Positions 4,930 through 11,093 of a stretch of DNA of 36,631 nt are shown in pieces. A program made the position numbers and the translations under genes. The stretch comes from a virus: positions 1 through 36,631 of the IMG/VR virus record IMGVR_UViG_3300045988_020874; one strand, given 5' to 3'. How positions within the stretch are numbered: position 1 is the first letter of the stretch; each line of letters opens with the position of its first letter. The notes beneath the pieces are model-generated. The model worked only from the letters and a program-made list of their open reading frames with translations, made no database searches and was not told the origin of the DNA.

Positions 4930-5130
4930 TTTATTTTCTAAAATAATTTCAAGCACATTTTTTTCTGTCACTCTCATATCAGTAACTCTTTTGTCTAAAA
5001 GCTCATCCGTTCCACAACTCAAAAAGTCATCCGCAAAGTGCTCTGTTTCGAACTTCATACCAAACGTTGTTACTACTGTTCTAATCAATGTGCTATTGTC
5101 GATTATCATTAAAATATCGTAGAAATTCAT
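4927..5130 (-). CDS. Hypothetical early protein (67 aa)
   Basis: ORF with RBS AGGAGGG in the conserved 5' UTR box. No motif recognised. Confidence 0.6.
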   Translation of the reverse strand: MNFYDILMIIDNSTLIRTVVTTFGMKFETEHFADDFLSCGTDELLDKRVTDMRVTEKNVLEIILENK

Positions 5131-5175
5131 CTTGTTTCCCTCCTGTTTGGTTGTCTTGTGTTTTGACCGTTTCGG

Positions 5176-5409
5176 CTAATTTGAAATGTTCTGTAATCCT
5201 GCAATTACAAGTGCAAGTGTTGTTTTACCATTGTTTGCTTCTTTTGCTCTTGCCATTAATGCTGAATAAAGTTCATGTGGGATGTTCTTTGTACCGTTTA
5301 AAGCGGCTAAACATTCATCGTAAGTTAATAAATTAATCATTTCTTTCGCCTGCTCAATACTTTCAAGCTTATCAATTTTCTTATTTGCTAAATCTTCTCT
5401 TGTTATCAT
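5176..5409 (-). CDS. Hypothetical early protein (77 aa), first gene of the leftward early operon
   Basis: ORF with RBS AAGAGGG in the conserved 5' UTR box. No HTH is evident. Confidence 0.6.
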   Translation of the reverse strand: MITREDLANKKIDKLESIEQAKEMINLLTYDECLAALNGTKNIPHELYSALMARAKEANNGKTTLALVIAGLQNISN

Positions 5410-5454
5410 GTTTTCCCTCTTGTTTGGTTGTCTTGTGTTTCTTAGCTTAGTTAT

Positions 5455-5483
5455 ACTTTATCATAACTCAGATAAATTGTCAA
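5455..5483 (-). promoter_or_regulatory. Leftward early promoter (PL-like)
   Basis: Minus strand has TTGACA (5483-5478), a 17-nt spacer, then TAAAGT (5460-5455) preceded by TGA (extended -10-like). Confidence 0.6.
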
Positions 5484-5506
5484 TAGTTTTTTATAACTCA
5501 GTTATA
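5458..5506. promoter_or_regulatory. Candidate operator sites of the genetic switch
   Basis: ATAACTCAG occurs at 5463-5471 and 5493-5501, 30 nt apart. The second copy lies in the palindrome TATAACTCAGTTATA (5492-5506). The first lies in TTATC-N8-GATAA (5458-5475), inside the PL spacer. A further AGTTATA half-site is at 5449-5455. Confidence 0.5.
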
Positions 5507-5513
5507 TTTTTTA

Positions 5514-5542
5514 TTGACTTTGTAATTGCTATGGTGTACTAT
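5514..5542 (+). promoter_or_regulatory. Rightward promoter for the repressor gene
   Basis: TTGACT (5514-5519), a 17-nt spacer, then TACTAT (5537-5542). RBS GAAAGGAGG follows ahead of the ATG at 5568. Confidence 0.55.
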
Positions 5543-5567
5543 ACTAATTAGAAAGGAGGTGTCAAAA

Positions 5568-5948
5568 ATGAATCGTCTTAACGAAAGAATTGATTATCTG
5601 ATAAAGAGTCTTGGGATGAAAAAAACAGCTTTCGCTGAAAAGCTTAATGTATCACAAGCTTTTGTATCACAATTATGTTCAGGGGTTAAACAGCCTAGTG
5701 AAAGAACAATACAGGACATATGCACTAAATTTAACGTCAATGAAGACTGGCTACGAACTGGAAACGGTGAAATGTTTATCGAATTAACAAGAGATGAACA
5801 GATAGAAAACTTTGTCGGTGATGTACTGAAAAGCGAGGAAGATTCTTTTAAAAAGAAATTTATTTCGATGCTTTCGGCGTTAGATGAATCTGACTGGGAA
5901 GTTCTACAGAAAATGGTGGAGCTAATGCAGGAAAACAAAAAGGGCTGA
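5568..5948 (+). CDS. CI-like XRE-family repressor (HTH only, no peptidase domain)
   Basis: 126 aa from the ATG at 5568, which has a strong RBS. The track ORF starts earlier at 5526. HTH segment is KKTAFAEKLNVSQAFVSQLCSGVKQPSERTIQDICTKFNV. Divergent from the early operon. Confidence 0.8.
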   Translation: MNRLNERIDYLIKSLGMKKTAFAEKLNVSQAFVSQLCSGVKQPSERTIQDICTKFNVNEDWLRTGNGEMFIELTRDEQIENFVGDVLKSEEDSFKKKFISMLSALDESDWEVLQKMVELMQENKKG

Positions 5949-6050
5949 TTATTTCAGCCCCAGTAAAGCCTTGATGTGTATGTAGATGAGCCGTAAACAA
6001 CGCTCATCTGCCATATCAAGCATTTTAATAATTTCTTTTCTGTAATCCAT
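5949..6050 (-). CDS. Small hypothetical protein (33 aa)
   Basis: ATG at 6050 with GGGAGGGG 5 nt upstream. Translation is MDYRKEIIKMLDMADERCLRLIYIHIKALLGLK. It ends in the hairpin GGGCTGA-ttatt-TCAGCCC (5942-5960), which is followed by a T-run on this strand. Confidence 0.4.
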   Translation of the reverse strand: MDYRKEIIKMLDMADERCLRLIYIHIKALLGLK

Positions 6051-6137
6051 GCAACCCCTCCCGTTATCAAATCTTTACTGCATTATATGATGCGCGTATC
6101 TCATTTATTCATTTTGGACATTATTTTCAGCAAATCC

Positions 6138-6166
6138 CTTGATATTTTATTCAATATCCTGTATAA
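6138..6166 (+). promoter_or_regulatory. Sigma-70-type promoter for the membrane protein gene
   Basis: TTGATA (6138-6143), a 17-nt spacer, then TATAAT (6161-6166). Confidence 0.6.
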
Positions 6167-6212
6167 TTTTACCTAAATTATTAATATAATAAATAAAAAA
6201 GGAGCAGAAAAT

Positions 6213-6851
6213 ATGAGCAAAGAAAAAACTAAAGTTTGCAAGCATTGTAAAGAAGAAATTGACGCAAAAGCTAAAGTGTGTCCTCATTGTCGAAAGAAAC
6301 AGGGCGGCAAGTTGAAATGGGTAGTTATCATTATCATTGTTCTGGCTGTTTTAGGCATGGCAATGGGCGGTGGTGACGACGACAGTTCTTCCACTGATTC
6401 TCAGACAAAGAGTGCTGCAACAACAGCGGCTAAGAAAGAAACTGCTAAAAAGGAAGAAACAAAAGAGAAAGACAGCGTAAAGGTTGGTGAATCTTTTGAG
6501 AATGACGGTTTAAAAGTAACTGCTAAAAAGGCTGAATTTGGATATGATGCCGGAGAGTACTTTACTCCAAAAGATGGATGTGAATATGTAGCTGTAGACT
6601 TTACTTGTGAGAATATTGCAGAAAAAGGTGACAAATATGTATCTGTATCTGATTGCGAATGCTATGCGGACAATTCAGCTTGCGAACAGCAATACATAGG
6701 AAACAGTGATTTTGTTAACACTAATTTATCTCCGGGAAAGAATGTAAGCTTTACAGCATACTACGAAGTGCCAAAAGATGCAAAGAAAGTGATTTTAGAA
6801 TATAGTGCTTCGTTCTGGACAGACAAGAAGATAACTATTAATTTAAAATAA
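6213..6851 (+). CDS. Zinc-ribbon / single-TM / DUF4352-like extracellular domain protein
   Basis: 212 aa. It has CKHC...CPHC at the N-terminus, a TM segment (WVVIIIIVLAVLGMAMG), an S/T/K-rich linker, and a beta-rich C-terminal domain of the type found in DUF4352 proteins. Confidence 0.6.
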   Translation: MSKEKTKVCKHCKEEIDAKAKVCPHCRKKQGGKLKWVVIIIIVLAVLGMAMGGGDDDSSSTDSQTKSAATTAAKKETAKKEETKEKDSVKVGESFENDGLKVTAKKAEFGYDAGEYFTPKDGCEYVAVDFTCENIAEKGDKYVSVSDCECYADNSACEQQYIGNSDFVNTNLSPGKNVSFTAYYEVPKDAKKVILEYSASFWTDKKITINLK

Positions 6852-6876
6852 TTAGTCCACTAATAGGACAACCAAC

Positions 6877-6915
6877 AAGAGGGAGGAATCAGTTCTTCCC
6901 TCTTTTCTTTTTTTC
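6877..6915 (+). terminator. Rho-independent terminator
   Basis: A 12-bp stem aagagggaggaa / ttcttccctctt (one G-U pair) followed by ttcttttttt. Confidence 0.8.
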
Positions 6916-6920
6916 TCAAA

Positions 6921-6953
6921 ACAATAAAAAGCACCTGTCGAAACAAGTGCTTT
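6921..6953 (-). terminator. Rho-independent terminator for the 8119-to-7048 operon
   Basis: Minus strand reads AAAGCACTTGT-TTCG-ACAGGTGCTTT followed by TTATTGTTTT. Confidence 0.65.
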
Positions 6954-7047
6954 ATCTTTCCAAAATGGAACTATTAATATTTTTGGTTTTCAAAACTAAG
7001 CTAACATTCACATCCCAAAATGTAACTATTAAAACCATGTCTATATA

Positions 7048-7293
7048 TTACTTCTTTTCTCCGTATTTGTCAATGAGTTCTTTTGCCTTATCTATATTTT
7101 CTTGTATGGTATTGTATTCAGAATACCGATGTCCCCCAAATGCATAATAAGTATGGTAATAATATCCAATACTAATGTATCCGTTTGGCATTTTTATCCT
7201 GAACTCATTATTTGACTTAAAAACCATGTCTTTAGGCAAAGTGGCTAAGAATCTGTCTAATTTTCTTCTTTTATTAAATTTTAATTCTTGCAT
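7048..7293 (-). CDS. Hypothetical protein (81 aa), third gene of the unknown operon
   Basis: ORF with RBS GAGGAGAG. Has a Tyr-rich core (GYISIGYYYHTYYAFGGHRYSEY). No family recognised. Confidence 0.6.
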   Translation of the reverse strand: MQELKFNKRRKLDRFLATLPKDMVFKSNNEFRIKMPNGYISIGYYYHTYYAFGGHRYSEYNTIQENIDKAKELIDKYGEKK

Positions 7294-7336
7294 ATTACTC
7301 TCCTCTGCCCTCGTAGCCTCCGGGGCGGGAATTTAA

Positions 7337-7612
7337 TTACTGAACCTCTATATTAACGATATTAACAAGTGTGCAATCTGCACTTTCTTCCTCCGGATTG
7401 TACTCGCTTTCAATTTCGAAAGAAATTGCAAAATGGTCGTCAGAATCAGGAACTTTATAAAAGATATTTTTATCCTTTAAAACATCATCCCACGCGCCCT
7501 CATCGTTTATCCAGTCCAGTTCAGAAGGGCACCCAAGCCTTGTCATGATTTCGTCTAATTCATAAAGTGATACTGTGTTCCCTGTTAATTCTCTTCTTAA
7601 AATTTCCAACAT
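7337..7612 (-). CDS. Hypothetical strongly acidic protein (91 aa)
   Basis: ORF with RBS GAGGA. By my count 23 D/E versus 6 K/R. No family recognised. Confidence 0.6.
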   Translation of the reverse strand: MLEILRRELTGNTVSLYELDEIMTRLGCPSELDWINDEGAWDDVLKDKNIFYKVPDSDDHFAISFEIESEYNPEEESADCTLVNIVNIEVQ

Positions 7613-7669
7613 AATAATTTTTCCTCGTCTTTCTTTCTCCGGCGGATTCCGCCGCCGGTCGTGTATTTA

Positions 7670-8119
7670 TTATAAAGATTCTATTTTGTCAGCAACTGTC
7701 CAGAGGATTTTTTTAATTAAACTTCCTCCTGGATTCTTACAAAACCAGTCTTCTTTTTTACAGTCGTAATACAATTTAGCTCCAAATCCCCAGTCAACAA
7801 GGTTTAATGCTTGACGCTGTGCAAAGCTTTTATATTCATCTGTGCAGATGCCATTAATGATTCTTCCACGTCCCATTGCTGCTGGCGTATTAGTTTCTTC
7901 GACTTCCAAATATTTCTGAAAGTCATTAATATAGATACGTTTCATATCGCCCTTCTCCCACACCTTATAGCCAAGGCGGATAAGCTTTTCCTCCATTGTT
8001 TCTCCCATGTTCTTTGCTTCCTTCCATGCTAATTTCAATCCTTCGGAGATGCAAAGACCTGCCTTTTTAACTAACTCCCATGCTCTTTTCATAATGTTTG
8101 ATAAATTGTATTTTTTCAT
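7670..8119 (-). CDS. Hypothetical protein (149 aa), first gene of the unknown operon
   Basis: ORF directly downstream of the strong promoter in repeat arm 1. The N-terminal MKRAWELVKKAGL...LKLAWKEAK motif is seen in many mobile-element proteins of unknown function. Confidence 0.65.
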   Translation of the reverse strand: MKKYNLSNIMKRAWELVKKAGLCISEGLKLAWKEAKNMGETMEEKLIRLGYKVWEKGDMKRIYINDFQKYLEVEETNTPAAMGRGRIINGICTDEYKSFAQRQALNLVDWGFGAKLYYDCKKEDWFCKNPGGSLIKKILWTVADKIESL

Positions 8120-8127
8120 TTCTTTGT

Positions 8128-8204
8128 ATCTCCTCTCTTGATTTACTCACATTATACACGATAGTGACTATTATGTCAAGAGAAAAATACACGAAAATAT
8201 ATTA
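8128..8204. repeat. Inverted-repeat arm 1, carrying a minus-strand promoter, 5' UTR and RBS
   Basis: 77 nt with 6 mismatches to the reverse complement of 8515-8591. The minus strand has TTGACA (8179-8174), a 17-nt spacer, TATAAT (8156-8151), then GAGAGGAGA and the ATG at 8119. Confidence 0.85.
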
Positions 8205-8212
8205 TTTTTTTC

Positions 8213-8241
8213 TTGATATTTATTTCAAAATAATGTACTAT
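8213..8241 (+). promoter_or_regulatory. Promoter for the small HTH gene
   Basis: TTGATA (8213-8218), a 17-nt spacer, then TACTAT (8236-8241). RBS AAAGGAGG follows ahead of the ATG at 8272. Confidence 0.5.
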
Positions 8242-8271
8242 ATATTTATAACGATTAAAGGAGGTTTCAAA

Positions 8272-8517
8272 ATGGAAACACGAGCAAGAAAAAGAAGTAA
8301 CATATATAAAGGTAGTATCTCATATAGTAATTTATGGGACACGCTAGAACGCAGAGGGTTAAAGCGTTCCAACCTATTAGATAAGGAAAGTTTTAATCTT
8401 TCCCCGGCGCTGGTCAATAAGTTGCGGCACGACAGAAACGTGAACATAGATACAATTATGTATTTGTGCGAGAAATTGGACTGTCAGGTGTGCGACATCG
8501 TAGAATATAAAAAATAA
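8272..8517 (+). CDS. Small XRE-type HTH protein (81 aa)
   Basis: The ATG at 8272 has a strong RBS; the track ORF begins earlier. The pattern LWDTLERRGLKRSNLLDKESFNLSPALVNKLRHDRNVNIDTIMYLCEKLDCQVCDIVEY is typical of short HTH_XRE proteins. Confidence 0.7.
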   Translation: METRARKRSNIYKGSISYSNLWDTLERRGLKRSNLLDKESFNLSPALVNKLRHDRNVNIDTIMYLCEKLDCQVCDIVEYKK

Positions 8518-8591
8518 TATATTTTCGTGTATTTTTTTCTTGACATAATAGTCATTATCATGTACAATATGATTAAATCAAGAGAGGAGAT
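8515..8591. repeat. Inverted-repeat arm 2, carrying a plus-strand promoter, 5' UTR and RBS
   Basis: Reverse complement of arm 1 with 6 mismatches in 77 nt. Has TTGACA (8540-8545), a 17-nt spacer, TACAAT (8563-8568), then the RBS and the ATG at 8611. Confidence 0.85.
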
Positions 8592-8610
8592 ATAGAGAGG
8601 TGAAAAAATT

Positions 8611-9279
8611 ATGAGTTTTTCAGATAGATTAAGACAAGCGCGAAAAAGGCAGGGGTTAACACAAGAAGAGCTTGGTAAAAAAAGCGGACTTTCGACATAT
8701 ACCATTCAACGCTATGAATACGGGAAATTAAATCCGAAGAAAGATACAGTAGCCAAACTTGCTGCCGCTTTAAATCTTGGATATAATTACACAAAAAGCG
8801 GCGAGCCATACTTTTACACTTTCGCTGATACCGTACCAAGTCGAGAATATGAAGGTGTCGAAGATTTTAACCAAGAACAGTGCCGAAATGCAATAGAAAA
8901 AGCATTAGAAGATGTAACTTTGTCAATGATAGGAGAAAAAATCAAAACTGTGCGCCTACAAAAGGGAGTTTCGCAGGCGGCACTTGCTAAATGTCTAGGT
9001 GTTTCAGCTGCCATGATTTACCAGTACGAAGTCGGAAAAAAGAAGCCAAAGGTAGAGACCTTATCAAAAATCGCAGGCGCTCTAGGTGTCGATTTAAAAG
9101 TTTTTTATGACGATTTGCCACAAAAAACTATGGAATTAAAAAGATACGAAAACATAGCATTGGTTAACGAATTTGAAAATGCTTGTTTTCGCTTGGTTAA
9201 CTTTCCGGACAGTGAAGAAATAACTGAGAAATACGAAAAGCTTAGAAAAAAGCTAATAGACAGGCTTAGTTGTATGTAG
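8611..9279 (+). CDS. Tandem double-HTH XRE-family regulator
   Basis: 222 aa with two HTH_XRE units (LRQARKRQGLTQEELGKKSGLSTYTIQRYEYG and IKTVRLQKGVSQAALAKCLGVSAAMIYQYEVG). Lies immediately upstream of int. Confidence 0.8.
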   Translation: MSFSDRLRQARKRQGLTQEELGKKSGLSTYTIQRYEYGKLNPKKDTVAKLAAALNLGYNYTKSGEPYFYTFADTVPSREYEGVEDFNQEQCRNAIEKALEDVTLSMIGEKIKTVRLQKGVSQAALAKCLGVSAAMIYQYEVGKKKPKVETLSKIAGALGVDLKVFYDDLPQKTMELKRYENIALVNEFENACFRLVNFPDSEEITEKYEKLRKKLIDRLSCM

Positions 9280-9324
9280 ATAGCAGCACCCGCCCCGGAG
9301 GTACGAAGGCAGGAAGGGAAATAA

Positions 9325-10662
9325 ATGAAAAGAGCCGCTTTATACGTGCGAGTAAGTACGCAAGAGCAGAAGAACAGTGGATTGTCCGTTGATTCGCAGA
9401 TAGATGCGCTTGAAAAATATTGTGAGGAACAGGGTTATACGGTTGCTGGCATTTATAACGATGCCGGCATATCTGCACGTAAAAAATATACAAAACGCCC
9501 CGCCCTCTTACAGTTGCTTGAGGATTGCAGGCAATGTAAGATTGACATAATACTCTTCACGCGCCTTGACAGGTGGTTTAGAGCCGTTGCAGGGTACTAC
9601 GAGGTACAAAATGTCCTTGACGCGTGTAAAGTGCCTTGGAGGGCTATCTGGGAGGATTATGAGACGGAGACAAGCCAGGGAATATTTAAAGTAAATATTA
9701 TGCTGTCCGTAGCGCAGGCGGAGGCAGACAGGGACAGCGAGAAAATACGGTCTGTTATGGAATTTAAACGGAACAACAAGGAATATATTGGTGGAAAAGT
9801 GCCGGTAGGTTATCGCATAGAAGGAAAAAAGATTGTAAAAGACGAAAAGACGCGAGGAATAATTGAGGATATGTTTGAGCATTACTTTCAGACCTTCTCA
9901 AAAGCAGGAACCGCCGACTATATTTTGAGTAAATACCCTGATTTTGTAAGAACCAGAACAAGGTTGGTTAAGATTATGTCCAGCCCGGCTTATCGCGGCG
10001 AAATGTATGGAGTAAAAAACTACTGTGAGCCGTACATCACAGAGGAACAAGCGCAAAAAATCAACGAAGTATCCAGCCAAAAAACTTGGACGGATTGCAG
10101 GAGGCGTATTTATATTTTTTCTGGCCTGATGAAATGCCCACTTTGCGGTTGCAGGCTTTCCGGGTGTGCAATAGGCAAAAAAGGAAAAAAGTACAAAGTA
10201 TATCACTGCCCCCACTCTGTCGCACAAAAGCACAAGACCTACACGAGATCAGAAAAAAAATTAGAAACATATATGCTCGACCACATCGAAGAAAAAATAC
10301 AGTTAGATGTATTAAAGGCAGAAGGTCGTGTGAAGGCAGGCGGAAACGATGCGGAAAAGAGAAAGAAAAAATTATCCAGTGAGTTGGGAAGAATTAATAA
10401 AATGTTTGAAAAAGGCAGAATAACAGAAGAATACTATGACGAAAGATACGAGGCTATATCGAAGGAACTAAAAGAACTATCCCAGACCGCCGCAACGGAA
10501 GAACTAGAAACTAAGAAAAAAATACAAAGTAAATTTCCTGACGGTTGGAAAGATATGTATATGCAGTTAGACGAACAAGGCAAGCAGGTGTTTTGGAAAA
10601 GCATTGTAAAAGAAATAAAAATATCCCCCGACACTTACGTGGAGGATATTATATTTTTTTAG
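9325..10662 (+). CDS. int: Large serine recombinase (phage integrase)
   Basis: 445 aa. The N-terminal resolvase-type catalytic motif is ALYVRVSTQEQ. A recombinase domain follows, then a Cys-rich zinc ribbon (CPLCGCRLSGC...YHCPH) and a C-terminal coiled coil. Confidence 0.85.
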   Translation: MKRAALYVRVSTQEQKNSGLSVDSQIDALEKYCEEQGYTVAGIYNDAGISARKKYTKRPALLQLLEDCRQCKIDIILFTRLDRWFRAVAGYYEVQNVLDACKVPWRAIWEDYETETSQGIFKVNIMLSVAQAEADRDSEKIRSVMEFKRNNKEYIGGKVPVGYRIEGKKIVKDEKTRGIIEDMFEHYFQTFSKAGTADYILSKYPDFVRTRTRLVKIMSSPAYRGEMYGVKNYCEPYITEEQAQKINEVSSQKTWTDCRRRIYIFSGLMKCPLCGCRLSGCAIGKKGKKYKVYHCPHSVAQKHKTYTRSEKKLETYMLDHIEEKIQLDVLKAEGRVKAGGNDAEKRKKKLSSELGRINKMFEKGRITEEYYDERYEAISKELKELSQTAATEELETKKKIQSKFPDGWKDMYMQLDEQGKQVFWKSIVKEIKISPDTYVEDIIFF

Positions 10663-10674
10663 TTTTTGTTATAC

Positions 10675-10712
10675 AGTAACTAGCCGTAACCACCAGATTA
10701 AAGCTAGTTACT
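10675..10712. other. Candidate attP core (10-bp perfect inverted repeat with an 18-bp spacer)
   Basis: AGTAACTAGC (10675-10684) and GCTAGTTACT (10703-10712). It sits in the int-to-cargo intergenic region, where attP is expected. Confidence 0.4.
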
Positions 10713-10763
10713 ACATAACTAAATATTAAAAATAAAGGAGATACAGTTACATTATACAAGAAG

Positions 10764-10797
10764 AAAGAGGACGTTTCAAGCGCCCTCTTTTATTTTT
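10764..10797 (+). terminator. Rho-independent terminator after int
   Basis: Stem aaagaggacg / cgccctcttt with one mismatch, loop tttcaag, then ttttattttt. It overlaps the 3' end of the convergent gene. Confidence 0.6.
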
Positions 10798-11093
10798 CGC
10801 AAAACTGACCGATATTCACGCGGGTACATTGCTTCGATGGCTTTCATGTGTTCGTCAAGCACGCGTAATAAGTGCTCAAAGTCTGCGTTTCGGGCGATTT
10901 CTTTAAATTCAGAATCTGGCTCGGAACTGTAAGAGTAGTATGATGTGTTTGGAGATAGTTGGTTCGGTTGTTGATTGCTCATTAAATTGTTGCGTACATT
11001 GTATAAAATCGAAAGCCGTTCGCAAGTGGCGTAGGTTGTTTTTCCTGCCTCTAATGCCGCAATTTCGGCATTAATTTCGCTCATATTAATCAT
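10776..11093 (-). CDS. Hypothetical cargo protein (105 aa)
   Basis: Last ORF before attP. Has a Q/N/S/Y-rich middle (NQQPNQLSPNTSYYSYSSEPD). Confidence 0.55.
   Translation of the reverse strand: MINMSEINAEIAALEAGKTTYATCERLSILYNVRNNLMSNQQPNQLSPNTSYYSYSSEPDSEFKEIARNADFEHLLRVLDEHMKAIEAMYPREYRSVLRKIKEGA

What the first reader, a model, noticed from the sequence alone, without database searches (positions are those of the whole stretch)
7048..8119. Strongly promoted three-gene operon of unknown small proteins (one very acidic) in the immunity region: candidate anti-defence or exclusion module
The genes 7670..8119 (149 aa), 7337..7612 (91 aa; 23 D/E versus 6 K/R by my count) and 7048..7293 (81 aa, Tyr-rich) are co-directional.

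Each has a good RBS. The group is driven by a near-consensus promoter (TTGACA, 17 nt, TATAAT) and closed by a terminator at 6921-6953.

The operon lies between the repressor/exclusion genes and the integrase. In temperate phages this is a hot spot for superinfection-exclusion, defence and counter-defence cargo. The DNA here is visibly more AT-rich than the structural genes.

I recognise no family for any of the three proteins. A small, highly acidic protein beside HTH regulators that share its promoter resembles the anti-CRISPR/Aca and DNA-mimic anti-restriction arrangements. That resemblance is analogy only.
Basis: inference. Interest (0 to 1): 0.7.

Follow-up and report, generated by a model that had tools for sequence, protein, structure and literature searches.

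The report
Candidate anti-CRISPR cassette array in gut phage
The three small genes are real, strongly promoted and of unknown family; in related phages of the gut bacterium Anaerobutyricum hallii the same slot also holds homologues of proven anti-CRISPR proteins. They are therefore best read as untested candidate inhibitors of bacterial immunity.

Summary
There are three co-directional minus-strand genes (149, 91 and 81 aa), a 12/12 consensus promoter, a terminator, an acidic middle protein (23 D/E against 6 K/R) and AT-rich DNA.

None of the three proteins matches a Pfam, PHROG, NCBIfam, PADLOC or PDB family. All three are under purifying selection.

- The promoter, 5'UTR and RBS form one arm of a 101-nt inverted repeat.
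- The other arm drives the 2xHTH and serine-integrase operon.
- The two arms flank an extremely conserved 81-aa HTH gene.

In about 48 related phage contigs this hub is constant. The genes beyond each arm are shuffled cassettes joined by recurring GC-rich linkers.

Three links to known anti-CRISPR proteins:
- Some relatives have a solo Cas5 homologous to the proven anti-CRISPR AcrIB3, always directly after the 91-aa gene.
- Others have a CapR-AP2 protein of the family that contains CasPR anti-CRISPRs.
- The N-terminal module of the 149-aa protein resembles the start of AcrIIA3.

Best reading: one arm of an anti-CRISPR-type locus controlled by an Aca-like repressor (confidence about 0.55). The evidence is guilt by association, not proof.

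Separately, the prophage splits a dnaG-linked sigA gene.

The parts
8110..8210 (-). Trio-side arm of the 101-nt inverted repeat. It holds the upstream element, the promoter, the 5'UTR, the RBS and the first codons of the 149-aa gene.
   Evidence: I1, 90% complementary to 8509-8609; alignment. Both arms are present in 48 of the 53 loci that hold a copy of it. Arm p-distance is 0.06-0.10, against dS of about 0.36 for the enclosed gene.
8151..8179 (-). Promoter of the trio: TTGACA, 17 nt, TATAAT. The spacer holds a small dyad (ATAGTCACTAT), and a TCGTGTA motif overlaps the -10 and recurs upstream of the -35.
   Evidence: 12/12; conservation over 48 unique arm sequences.
7670..8119 (-). g149, the first cassette gene. 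Residues 1-37 form a helical hairpin, the N-module (MKKYNLSNIMKRAWELVKK..LKLAWKEAK). A C-terminal alpha/beta domain follows.
   Evidence: 573 unannotated homologues. The N-module is conserved in front of at least five different C-termini. AF2 pLDDT 89.8. No PDB neighbour; only uncharacterised phage proteins in BFVD. hhalign against the AcrIIA3 N-terminus: 84.6%, E 6.8e-6. dN/dS 0.09.
7639..7658 (-). GC-rich hairpin linker, type A (CCGGCGG-CGGAAU-CCGCCGG), between g149 and g91.
   Evidence: -14.3 kcal/mol. The same linker precedes g91, F6 and F15 in relatives.
7337..7612 (-). g91, an acidic protein (pI 4.05) with an alpha/beta fold.
   Evidence: Composition. The family is tiny: 14 representatives among 1.84 billion proteins. 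AF2 pLDDT 88.5. Weak, convergent YugN-like signals. It lies immediately upstream of the solo Cas5b in all six contigs that carry Cas5b. dN/dS 0.28.
7294..7336 (-). GC-rich linker, type B (..CCCGCCCCGGAGGCTACGAGGGCAGAGGAG..), plus the RBS of g81.
   Evidence: The same linker precedes g81, F6, the viral Cas5b and a multi-HTH gene in relatives.
7048..7293 (-). g81, a basic (pI 9.5), Tyr-rich protein and the last cassette gene.
   Evidence: Only close homologues were found. No family hit. It follows the viral Cas5b in L096, L097 and L098 and, after a 67-aa ORF, in L100. dN/dS 0.14.
6960..7032 (-). 3'UTR with two direct copies of TTAATAGTT(A/C)CATTTTGG. Its role is unexplained.
   Evidence: D15; conserved variants in relatives. 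Tests for CRISPR-repeat identity were negative.
6928..6953 (-). Intrinsic terminator that closes the operon.
8272..8517 (+). HTH26, an 81-aa Cro/C1-type HTH regulator enclosed by the two arms. It is the candidate Aca-like repressor of both.
   Evidence: Pfam HTH_26, E 2e-9. It is present in the same orientation in every related locus that includes that region. dN/dS 0.012. A related HTH_26-type gene sits co-directionally upstream of g149-g91-Cas5b in a second backbone.
8213..8241 (+). Promoter-like site of HTH26. It is a diverged third copy of the same promoter, back to back with the trio promoter.
   Evidence: (D5: 74% identity to 8530-8575).
8509..8609 (+). Integrase-side arm of the inverted repeat. 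It carries the twin promoter TTGACA-17-TACAAT (8540..8568) and a relic mini-ORF, GTG AAA AAA TTA TGA (8600-8614), which overlaps the ATG of the 2xHTH gene.
   Evidence: In relatives this arm drives other cassettes.
8611..9279 (+). 2xHTH protein (222 aa). It is the cargo of the opposite arm and is optional among relatives.
   Evidence: Pfam HTH_3 twice. Absent or replaced in many relatives.
9325..10662 (+). Large serine integrase, transcribed from the twin promoter arm.
   Evidence: Pfam Resolvase with the Zn_ribbon_recom domain; phrog_95.

Best explanation
The trio is the cargo of one arm of a two-armed anti-defence expression hub in a temperate phage of Anaerobutyricum hallii. The hub is most probably of the anti-CRISPR type.

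Anatomy (shown):
- A highly constrained 81-aa HTH gene (8272..8517) is flanked by two inverted copies of about 100 bp.
- Each copy holds a near-consensus promoter, a 5'UTR and an RBS.
- Each copy fires outward into a short array of small genes.
- These genes are exchanged between related phages at the arms and at recurring GC-rich linkers.

Proposed working (inferred):
1. On entry of the phage DNA, and again at induction, no repressor is present.
2. Both consensus promoters then fire at once.
3. The left arm gives a burst of g149, g91 and g81, which bind and disable host immune effectors. The most likely target is type I-B Cascade, judging by the company these genes keep.
4. The right arm gives the 2xHTH protein and the integrase.
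5. The HTH protein accumulates, binds the shared sequences in both arms and turns them down, as Aca proteins do for acr operons.

Shown: the anatomy, its conservation, the shuffling of cassettes, and the co-occurrence with homologues of proven Acr proteins.

Inferred: inhibitor activity, the target, repression by the HTH protein, and the timing.
For: 1. Strong promoter and terminator; genuine coding genes.

2. Conserved hub. The 101-nt inverted repeat was found in 48 of the 53 related loci that hold a copy of the arm (the rest are cut by a contig end), always 294-298 nt apart. The arms evolve several times more slowly than the synonymous sites of the enclosed gene.

3. Hypervariable cargo on both sides. 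At least 12 families of small genes are shuffled there, several of them acidic. The same two GC-rich linkers precede unrelated genes.

4. Viral Cas5b in the operon.
- A solo full-length Cas5b (PADLOC E 1e-66) sits inside the operon in six contigs, each time directly after g91.
- It is homologous to AcrIB3 (phmmer E 1.4e-17; BLASTP).
- AcrIB3 is a Cas5 homologue shown experimentally to inhibit type I-B CRISPR (bioRxiv 10.1101/2023.06.24.545427).
- Two of these contigs are listed in that paper's Table S3 as orphan viral cas5 genes with Anaerobutyricum as host.

5. Independent co-occurrence. In an unrelated backbone (L034-L037) the closest full-length relative of g149 (54-55% identity) shares an operon with another AcrIB3 homologue (33% identity over 227 aa, E 1e-42).

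6. CapR-AP2 proteins.
- Proteins homologous to adc37 and adc12 (E 1e-24) occupy the opposite slot of several relatives.
- In L099 such a protein lies directly upstream of g91.
- This family includes the CasPR anti-CRISPRs and marks acr loci in Bacillota (bioRxiv 10.64898/2026.02.23.707548).

7. N-module. The g149 N-module matches the N-terminus of AcrIIA3 (hhalign 84.6%, E 6.8e-6; hmmsearch E 1.2e-4 among 44 sequences).

8. Second backbone. An HTH_26-type gene lies co-directionally just upstream of g149-g91-Cas5b-g81 there, which is the classic aca-acr layout.
Against: - No assay exists. All the functional evidence is association.
- g91 and g81 match none of the 44 Listeria Acr or acr-associated proteins tested.
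- In the Listeria screen, many genes located in acr loci showed no CRISPR inhibition (Table S2). Location alone gives well under even odds for any single gene.
- The window itself carries neither the viral Cas5 nor the CapR-AP2 gene.
- The match to AcrIIA3 covers only 37 columns, and the domain responsible for AcrIIA3 activity is unknown to me.
- I could not establish whether A. hallii has a type I-B system.
- The locus lies in the lysogeny module, where prophage-expressed morons are also common.
Confidence: 0.55

Rival explanations
1. Prophage-expressed defence or superinfection-exclusion cargo. On this reading the trio is a moron, transcribed in the lysogen from its own strong promoter, that protects the host against other phages.
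For: - It lies in the lysogeny module next to a DUF4352/Sie-like membrane protein.
- It has its own promoter and terminator.
- It is AT-rich and variable, like many defence islets.
Against: - None of the three proteins, nor most of the alternative cargo, hits a PADLOC, Pfam or NCBIfam family.
- The only recognisable companions are counter-defence proteins: an AcrIB3-like Cas5 and CapR-AP2 proteins.
- The promoter is a twin of the one that drives the integrase. I would expect an integrase to be kept low in a stable lysogen; this expectation is inference.
Confidence: 0.13
2. Early host-takeover or lysis-lysogeny accessory genes unrelated to immunity. Examples would be inhibitors of host enzymes, or modulators of the decision circuit, that merely share a hot spot with anti-CRISPR genes.
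For: - The g149 family is large (573 homologues) and is spread over many phage backbones that show no recognisable Acr neighbour.
- Many acr-locus genes in Listeria showed no CRISPR inhibition.
- The trio is co-regulated with the integrase arm.
Against: - A gene essential to the decision circuit should be constant, but each of the three is dispensable among close relatives.
- Both g149 and g91 repeatedly and independently neighbour Acr homologues.
Confidence: 0.17
3. One of the three proteins is the recombination directionality factor (excisionase) of the serine integrase, co-expressed with it through the duplicated promoter.
For: - The same promoter sequence drives the trio and the integrase operon.
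- RDFs of serine integrases are small and diverse (general knowledge).
Against: - The integrase is nearly invariant across the family, yet relatives exist with none of the three: no 149-aa C-domain, no g91 and no g81. L041 and L044 carry a 140-aa variant plus F8; L059, L066 and L067 carry only F13.
- An RDF would have to accompany its integrase.
Confidence: 0.04
4. The inverted repeat is the recombination site of an invertible DNA switch (an inverton) that flips the HTH gene, with the neighbouring serine recombinase as invertase.
For: 101-nt inverted repeats flank a 298-nt segment, and a serine recombinase gene lies 0.7 kb away.
Against: - In every related locus that includes it (about 50 contigs), the HTH gene has the same orientation relative to both flanks.
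- The arms are promoters pointing outward, so inversion would change nothing for them.
- The recombinase is a large serine integrase with an identified attP/attL/attR.
Confidence: 0.02

Closest known systems
Listeria prophage acr loci with an HTH autorepressor (AcrIIA1/Aca), as used for guilt-by-association discovery (bioRxiv 10.1101/2023.06.24.545427)
   Same: - Small, unrelated, often acidic genes in a variable prophage slot.
- A conserved HTH gene attached.
- Companions include a Cas5-derived Acr and CapR-AP2 proteins.
- Firmicute host.
   Different: - Here the HTH gene is divergent and is enclosed by two mirrored promoter arms that feed two cassette arrays, one of which ends in the integrase.
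- The three window proteins have no full-length homologue among the Listeria proteins.
- The host is a Lachnospiraceae gut commensal.
AcrIIA3 (Listeria type II-A anti-CRISPR)
   Same: An N-terminal helical module, xN(L/K)xxIMKxAW ... SxxLKxAWxxAK. hhalign gives 84.6% over 37 columns at 38% identity.
   Different: - The rest of the protein is unrelated.
- AcrIIA3 has a 15-residue insert within the module.
- No evidence that g149 acts on Cas9.
AcrIB3 (viral Cas5 that poisons type I-B Cascade)
   Same: Homologues sit in the same operon as g149, g91 and g81 in relatives.
   Different: - It is not present in this window.
- The 337-aa version in close relatives is longer than AcrIB3 (237 aa) and matches a full Cas5b model.
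CasPR / adc37 CapR-AP2 DNA-binding proteins (bioRxiv 10.64898/2026.02.23.707548)
   Same: A homologue (F17; E 1e-24 to adc37 and adc12) occupies the opposite arm's slot in relatives.
   Different: - It is not present in this window.
- adc37 itself showed no CRISPR inhibition in the 2023 screen.
Aca-repressed acr operons (Aca1/Aca2 type; from general knowledge)
   Same: A very strong promoter next to a small HTH protein, with conserved repeats within the promoter region.
   Different: - The regulator is divergent rather than the last gene of the operon.
- One regulator would serve two mirrored promoters.
- Binding has not been tested.
PeSL 'mobile regulatory cassettes' of T4-type phages and the boundary/linker sequences of lambdoid phages (from general knowledge)
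   Same: Short conserved promoter or stem-loop elements at gene boundaries, across which small accessory genes are shuffled.
   Different: Different sequences and phage groups. Here there is an inverted pair of promoter arms plus two GC-rich linker types.
YugN-like family (PF08868; PDB 2r5x)
   Same: g91 gives three weak, convergent signals: Pfam E 0.015, PDB sequence profile E 0.37, and Foldseek TM 0.50 with probability 0.75.
   Different: All are below threshold. YugN has no known function, so no mechanism follows.

Membership tests
Anti-CRISPR (acr) locus, operational definition | Small genes on a mobile element next to a conserved HTH (Aca-type) gene | tested here: met
Anti-CRISPR (acr) locus, operational definition | Same operon or slot holds homologues of experimentally validated Acr proteins in related elements | tested here: met
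   AcrIB3 homologues. CapR-AP2 (adc37/adc12). These are in relatives, not in the window itself.
Anti-CRISPR (acr) locus, operational definition | Gene product inhibits a CRISPR-Cas system in an interference assay | not testable with these tools
   Needs plasmid- or phage-targeting assays.
Aca-type autoregulation | The HTH protein binds repeats in the acr promoter and represses it | not testable with these tools
   Only conserved candidate sites were seen (TCGTGTA twice, and a dyad in the spacer), plus strong constraint on the arms.
AcrIIA3 family | Full-length sequence homology | tested here: not met
   Only the 37 N-terminal columns align. phmmer with the full g149 gave E 0.21.
Pfam PF07410 Phage_Gp111 | Score at or above the gathering threshold (27.1 bits) | tested here: not met
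   17.7 bits, N-terminal 36 residues only.
Pfam PF08868 YugN-like (g91) | Score at or above the gathering threshold (25 bits), or a clear fold match | tested here: inconclusive
   15.7 bits. 2r5x: TM 0.50, E 0.43.
Known anti-phage defence systems (PADLOC 2.0) | Any component model matched | tested here: not met
   0 families for all three proteins at E <= 0.1.
Invertible promoter / DNA inversion switch | Both orientations of the segment between the inverted repeats occur in populations | tested here: not met
   A single orientation was seen in every related locus that includes the segment, about 50 contigs.
Serine-integrase RDF | Obligate co-occurrence with its integrase | tested here: not met
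   Relatives with a near-identical integrase lack g91, g81 and the g149 C-domain.
RNA anti-CRISPR / viral mini-CRISPR array (3'UTR repeats) | The repeat matches a CRISPR repeat family or a host array | tested here: not met
   Rfam CRISPR-DR55: 18.9 bits against 41. No arrays in the metagenome scan. Single copies only in IMG/VR. The host's own repeat could not be obtained.

The most novel reading that the evidence does not exclude
g149, g91 and g81 are three new anti-CRISPR or anti-defence families aimed at the type I-B Cascade of a major butyrate-producing gut commensal. On this reading:
- g91 works together with viral Cas5, its constant neighbour wherever that gene is present.
- The genes are delivered from a previously undescribed architecture: one Aca-like repressor enclosed by mirrored consensus promoters.
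- The promoter arms and the GC-hairpin linkers act as recombination handles, giving an integron-like exchanger of counter-defence cassettes.
- The AcrIIA3-like N-module is a common leader domain.
Probability: 0.25. Interest if true: 0.75.

Novelty: new member of a known kind. Interest (0 to 1): 0.5.

Why it matters
Anti-CRISPR proteins are known almost only from a few model hosts such as Pseudomonas, Listeria and Streptococcus.

If these proteins are inhibitors, the locus would offer three things:
- Candidate inhibitors from phages of Anaerobutyricum hallii, an abundant gut butyrate producer.
- A set of about a dozen further cassette families to test.
- A compact regulatory design: one repressor with twin mirrored promoters.

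The locus also supplies an easily recognised marker for mining more such loci in Lachnospiraceae phages: the HTH gene plus the two arms.

The side observation may interest specialists more than the trio itself. The prophage interrupts a dnaG-linked sigA at the universally conserved ATWWIRQ codons.

Tried and rejected
- Family searches for the three proteins (Pfam, PHROGs, NCBIfam, PADLOC) gave only sub-threshold hits.
- PDB sequence-profile searches gave nothing significant.
- Foldseek of the g149 model found no PDB neighbour, and only uncharacterised phage proteins in BFVD.
- Foldseek of the g91 model found only a weak YugN match.
- The exhaustive HMMER search for g91 found only 14 representatives, so it added little depth.
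- A literature search for Gp111 / PF07410 returned only unrelated infliximab biosimilar papers.
- A literature search for A. hallii CRISPR types was uninformative.
- The genome-contig scan with the integrase found no close prophage in GTDB species representatives. The host was identified instead from the exact DnaG match.
- The inversion-switch reading of the inverted repeat was rejected, because only one orientation occurs.
- The RDF reading was rejected on co-occurrence.
- The CRISPR-repeat or Racr reading of the 3'UTR repeats was not supported.
- A CRISPR-DR45 hit inside g91 (24.3 bits against 37, E 0.8) is treated as chance.
- Weak Csm2 and Csx1 hits of the alternative cargo F8 and F5 are treated as noise.
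Full report

Yes.
- The middle protein has exactly 23 D/E and 6 K/R, with pI 4.05. The last protein has 9 Tyr.
- The promoter TTGACA-17-TATAAT at 8179..8151 is the only 12/12 match in 5000-11000.
- A hairpin at 6953..6928 followed by a T-run closes the unit. It folds at -13.2 kcal/mol, z -3.5.
- Each start codon has a GAGGAG/GAGGA motif 6-10 nt upstream.
- GC content is 36.6%, against 43.1% for the region 11000-36631, which holds most of the structural genes.
- Across related alleles the three genes have dN/dS of 0.09, 0.28 and 0.14, so they are real protein-coding genes.

**2. What the proteins are not**

None reaches the threshold of any Pfam, PHROG, NCBIfam or PADLOC family or matches a PDB sequence.

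*g149*
- It has 573 unannotated homologues.
- The alignment shows a nearly invariant N-terminal module of about 37 residues, MKKYNLSNIMKRAWELVKK..LKxAWKEAK. This module is joined to several unrelated C-termini.
- Its AF2 model is confident (pLDDT 89.8): a helical hairpin followed by an alpha/beta domain.
- The model has no PDB neighbour. In BFVD it matches only uncharacterised phage proteins.

*g91*
- It belongs to a tiny family, with 14 representatives among 1.84 billion proteins.
- Its model has pLDDT 88.5. The best PDB match is YugN (2r5x; TM 0.50, probability 0.75, E 0.43).
- This agrees with two other weak signals (Pfam E 0.015; PDB profile E 0.37). YugN itself has no known function.

*g81*
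- It has only close relatives and no family hit.

**3.

The promoter, 5'UTR, RBS and first codons of g149 (8110-8210) form one arm of a 101-nt inverted repeat.
- The other arm (8509-8609, 90% identical) carries TTGACA-17-TACAAT.
- That arm drives the 2xHTH gene (8611..9279) and the large serine integrase (9325..10662).
- In the second arm the former start of an N-module gene survives as a relic mini-ORF, GTG AAA AAA TTA TGA. It overlaps the ATG of the 2xHTH gene.
- Between the arms lies an 81-aa Cro/C1-type HTH gene (8272..8517; Pfam HTH_26). Its own promoter is a diverged third copy of the same promoter (D5).

**4. Comparative survey**

I collected 80 IMG/VR loci through the g149 alignment, plus metagenome contigs, and analysed them with scripts.

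*The hub is constant.*
- Of the 53 loci that hold a copy of the arm, 48 hold both copies; in the other five the contig ends before the second.
- The arms are always inverted and 294-298 nt apart.
- The HTH gene always has the same orientation.

*The HTH gene and arms are strongly constrained.*
- The HTH gene has dN/dS 0.012, with dS about 0.36.
- The non-coding arms differ by only 6-10%. They therefore change several times more slowly than neighbouring synonymous sites.
- TCGTGTA occurs twice in each arm, and the promoter spacer holds a small dyad. These are candidate operator sites.

*The cargo beyond each arm is shuffled.*
- Trio side: g149 or other N-module proteins (140, 109 or 112-115 aa). 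These are followed by combinations of g91, F6 (130-134 aa, acidic), F8 (160 aa), F15 (53 aa, Cys-rich), a 337-aa gene and g81.
- Integrase side: nothing, or a multi-HTH protein (193-324 aa), or a 205-aa protein, or an N-module paralogue plus F5 (acidic) plus F9 or F17.
- Two GC-rich linkers recur in front of unrelated genes. Type A (a 7-bp GC hairpin, window 7639-7658) precedes g91, F6 and F15. Type B (window about 7300-7330) precedes g81, F6, the 337-aa gene and a multi-HTH gene.
- One database protein (P0133) even fuses the N-terminal half of g91 to an F6-like C-terminus.

The trio is therefore one state of a cassette array, not a fixed operon.

**5. What the companions say**

*Viral Cas5*
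- The 337-aa gene is a full-length Cas5b (PADLOC PDLC02094, E 1e-66) with no other cas gene nearby.
- It occurs in six IMG/VR contigs, each time directly after g91, in two or three different backbones.
- It is homologous to AcrIB3 (phmmer E 1.4e-17; BLASTP).
- AcrIB3 is a Listeria phage Cas5 homologue shown experimentally to inhibit type I-B CRISPR (bioRxiv 10.1101/2023.06.24.545427).
- Two of these contigs appear in that paper's Table S3 as predicted orphan viral cas5 genes with Anaerobutyricum as host.
- In an unrelated backbone (L034-L037), the closest full-length relative of g149 (54-55% identity) shares an operon with a small HTH, an acidic 76-aa protein and another AcrIB3 homologue. That homologue is 33% identical over 227 aa (E 1e-42).

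*CapR-AP2*
- F17 is a CapR-AP2 protein homologous to adc37 and adc12 of the Listeria acr loci (E 1e-24).
- This family includes the CasPR anti-CRISPRs and is described as a frequent marker of acr loci in Bacillota prophages (bioRxiv 10.64898/2026.02.23.707548).

*AcrIIA3*
- The profile of the g149 family matches the N-terminus of AcrIIA3 (hhalign 84.6%, E 6.8e-6, 37 columns, 38% identity).
- hmmsearch gave E 1.2e-4 among 44 sequences, and AcrIIA3 was the clear top hit.

*Second backbone*
- In L100 and L028 an HTH_26-type gene lies co-directionally just upstream of g149-g91-Cas5b-(67 aa)-g81. This is the classic aca-acr layout.

*Limits*
- g91 and g81 match none of the 44 Listeria Acr or adc proteins.

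**6. Interpretation**

The best-supported reading is that the trio is the cargo of one arm of an anti-CRISPR-type counter-defence locus.
- The enclosed HTH protein would be the Aca-like repressor of both mirrored promoters.
- The twin promoter also drives the integrase. I would expect an integrase to be needed right after entry and at induction but kept low in a stable lysogen. That expectation is inference.
- By the same logic the trio would be expressed in an early burst and then shut off, which is what anti-defence proteins need.
- This remains guilt by association. In the Listeria screen many genes in acr loci had no activity against the CRISPR types tested.
- I give about 0.55 that at least one of the three is a counter-defence protein.

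**7. Rivals**
- Prophage-expressed defence or exclusion has positional support only and no family hit.
- A non-immune early or accessory role cannot be excluded.
- The RDF idea fails. Relatives with a near-identical integrase lack all three genes.
- The inversion-switch idea fails. Only one orientation exists.

**8. Host and integration site (side finding)**
- The flanking DnaG is identical to that of Anaerobutyricum hallii.
- In bacterial contigs the prophage lies inside the dnaG-linked sigA-type gene.
- attL leaves a 249-aa fragment (regions 1.1-2) ending ...STYATWW-FRLVTV*.
- attR is followed by IRQSITRAIADQARTIRIPVH... An ORF of 158 aa (regions 3-4) starts only at an internal Met. trmK follows it.
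- The crossover core is CTGGTGG. On the plus strand of the window this is CCACCAG at 10690-10696, within the imperfect inverted repeat 10655-10732.
- These bases encode the universally conserved ATWWIRQ motif.
- A strong outward promoter-like site (10779..10751, minus strand, 11/12) points across attR.
- I did not resolve how lysogens cope with this interruption.

**9. Novelty and score**
- The kind of locus is known: an acr or counter-defence locus with an HTH regulator.
- The three proteins would be new families within that kind.
- The mirrored-promoter hub with linker-mediated shuffling is an unusual layout.
- Function is unproven, so interest is moderate (0.5).

Noticed in passing
window 10655-10732 (attP; core CCACCAG at 10690-10696); L001:4195-4950 (attL); L103:4390-4944 (attR): The prophage integrates inside a dnaG-linked sigA/rpoD-type gene of Anaerobutyricum hallii, at the codons of the universal ATWWIRQ motif. 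This splits the gene into a 249-aa fragment (regions 1.1-2) and a 158-aa ORF (regions 3-4) about 37 kb apart. Region 2.4 is left without a start codon. How lysogens cope is unknown: a second sigA, or skin/sigK-like excision?
   Followed up: partly
window 10751-10779 (minus strand): A near-consensus promoter-like site (TTGAAA-17-TATAAT, 11/12) lies at the very end of the phage genome. It points outward across attP, and therefore toward the sigma r3-r4 fragment in the lysogen.
   Followed up: no
L008:8822-9835 (also L096-L100 and L028); L035:9307-9996 (also L034, L036, L037): Relatives carry solo viral Cas5 genes homologous to the anti-CRISPR AcrIB3. A 337-aa Cas5b always follows g91. A 229-aa AcrIB3-like protein shares an operon with a g149 homologue in another backbone. 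Two of these contigs are already listed as orphan viral cas5 genes in Table S3 of bioRxiv 10.1101/2023.06.24.545427.
   Followed up: yes
L045:6508-7134 (also L043, L050, L097, L098, L099): A CapR-AP2 protein (208 aa) homologous to the Listeria proteins adc37 and adc12 (the CasPR family) occupies the integrase-side slot of several relatives.
   Followed up: yes
window 6960-6977 and 7015-7032 (3'UTR of the trio): Two direct repeats. Read on the minus strand, the upstream copy is GGTTTTAATAGTTACATTTTGGGATGTGAAT. From memory this resembles a clostridial type I-B CRISPR repeat. Rfam (18.9 bits against 41) and the scans for arrays did not support the idea.
   Followed up: partly
window 7639-7658 and about 7300-7330: Two GC-rich intergenic linkers recur upstream of unrelated cassette genes in relatives. 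They may be recombination handles or RNA processing or stability elements.
   Followed up: partly
window 8600-8614: A relic mini-ORF, GTG AAA AAA TTA TGA (MKKL*), lies in the integrase-side arm. It is the remnant of the start of an N-module gene and overlaps the ATG of the 2xHTH gene.
   Followed up: yes
window 7582-7605 (plus strand, inside g91): A sub-threshold Rfam hit to CRISPR-DR45 (24.3 bits against 37, E 0.8). It lies inside coding sequence and is probably chance.
   Followed up: no
window 5453-5512: Two tandem 30-nt repeats lie in the CI/Cro intergenic region and contain the dyad ATAACTCAGTTAT. These are probable CI operators. The half-sites resemble the ATAAT-N4-ATTAT dyad in the hub promoters, so cross-control by CI is conceivable.
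   Followed up: no
window 8272-8517: The 81-aa HTH gene is under extreme purifying selection (dN/dS 0.012 over 466 allele pairs, with dS about 0.36), yet it matches no PHROG family.
   Followed up: partly
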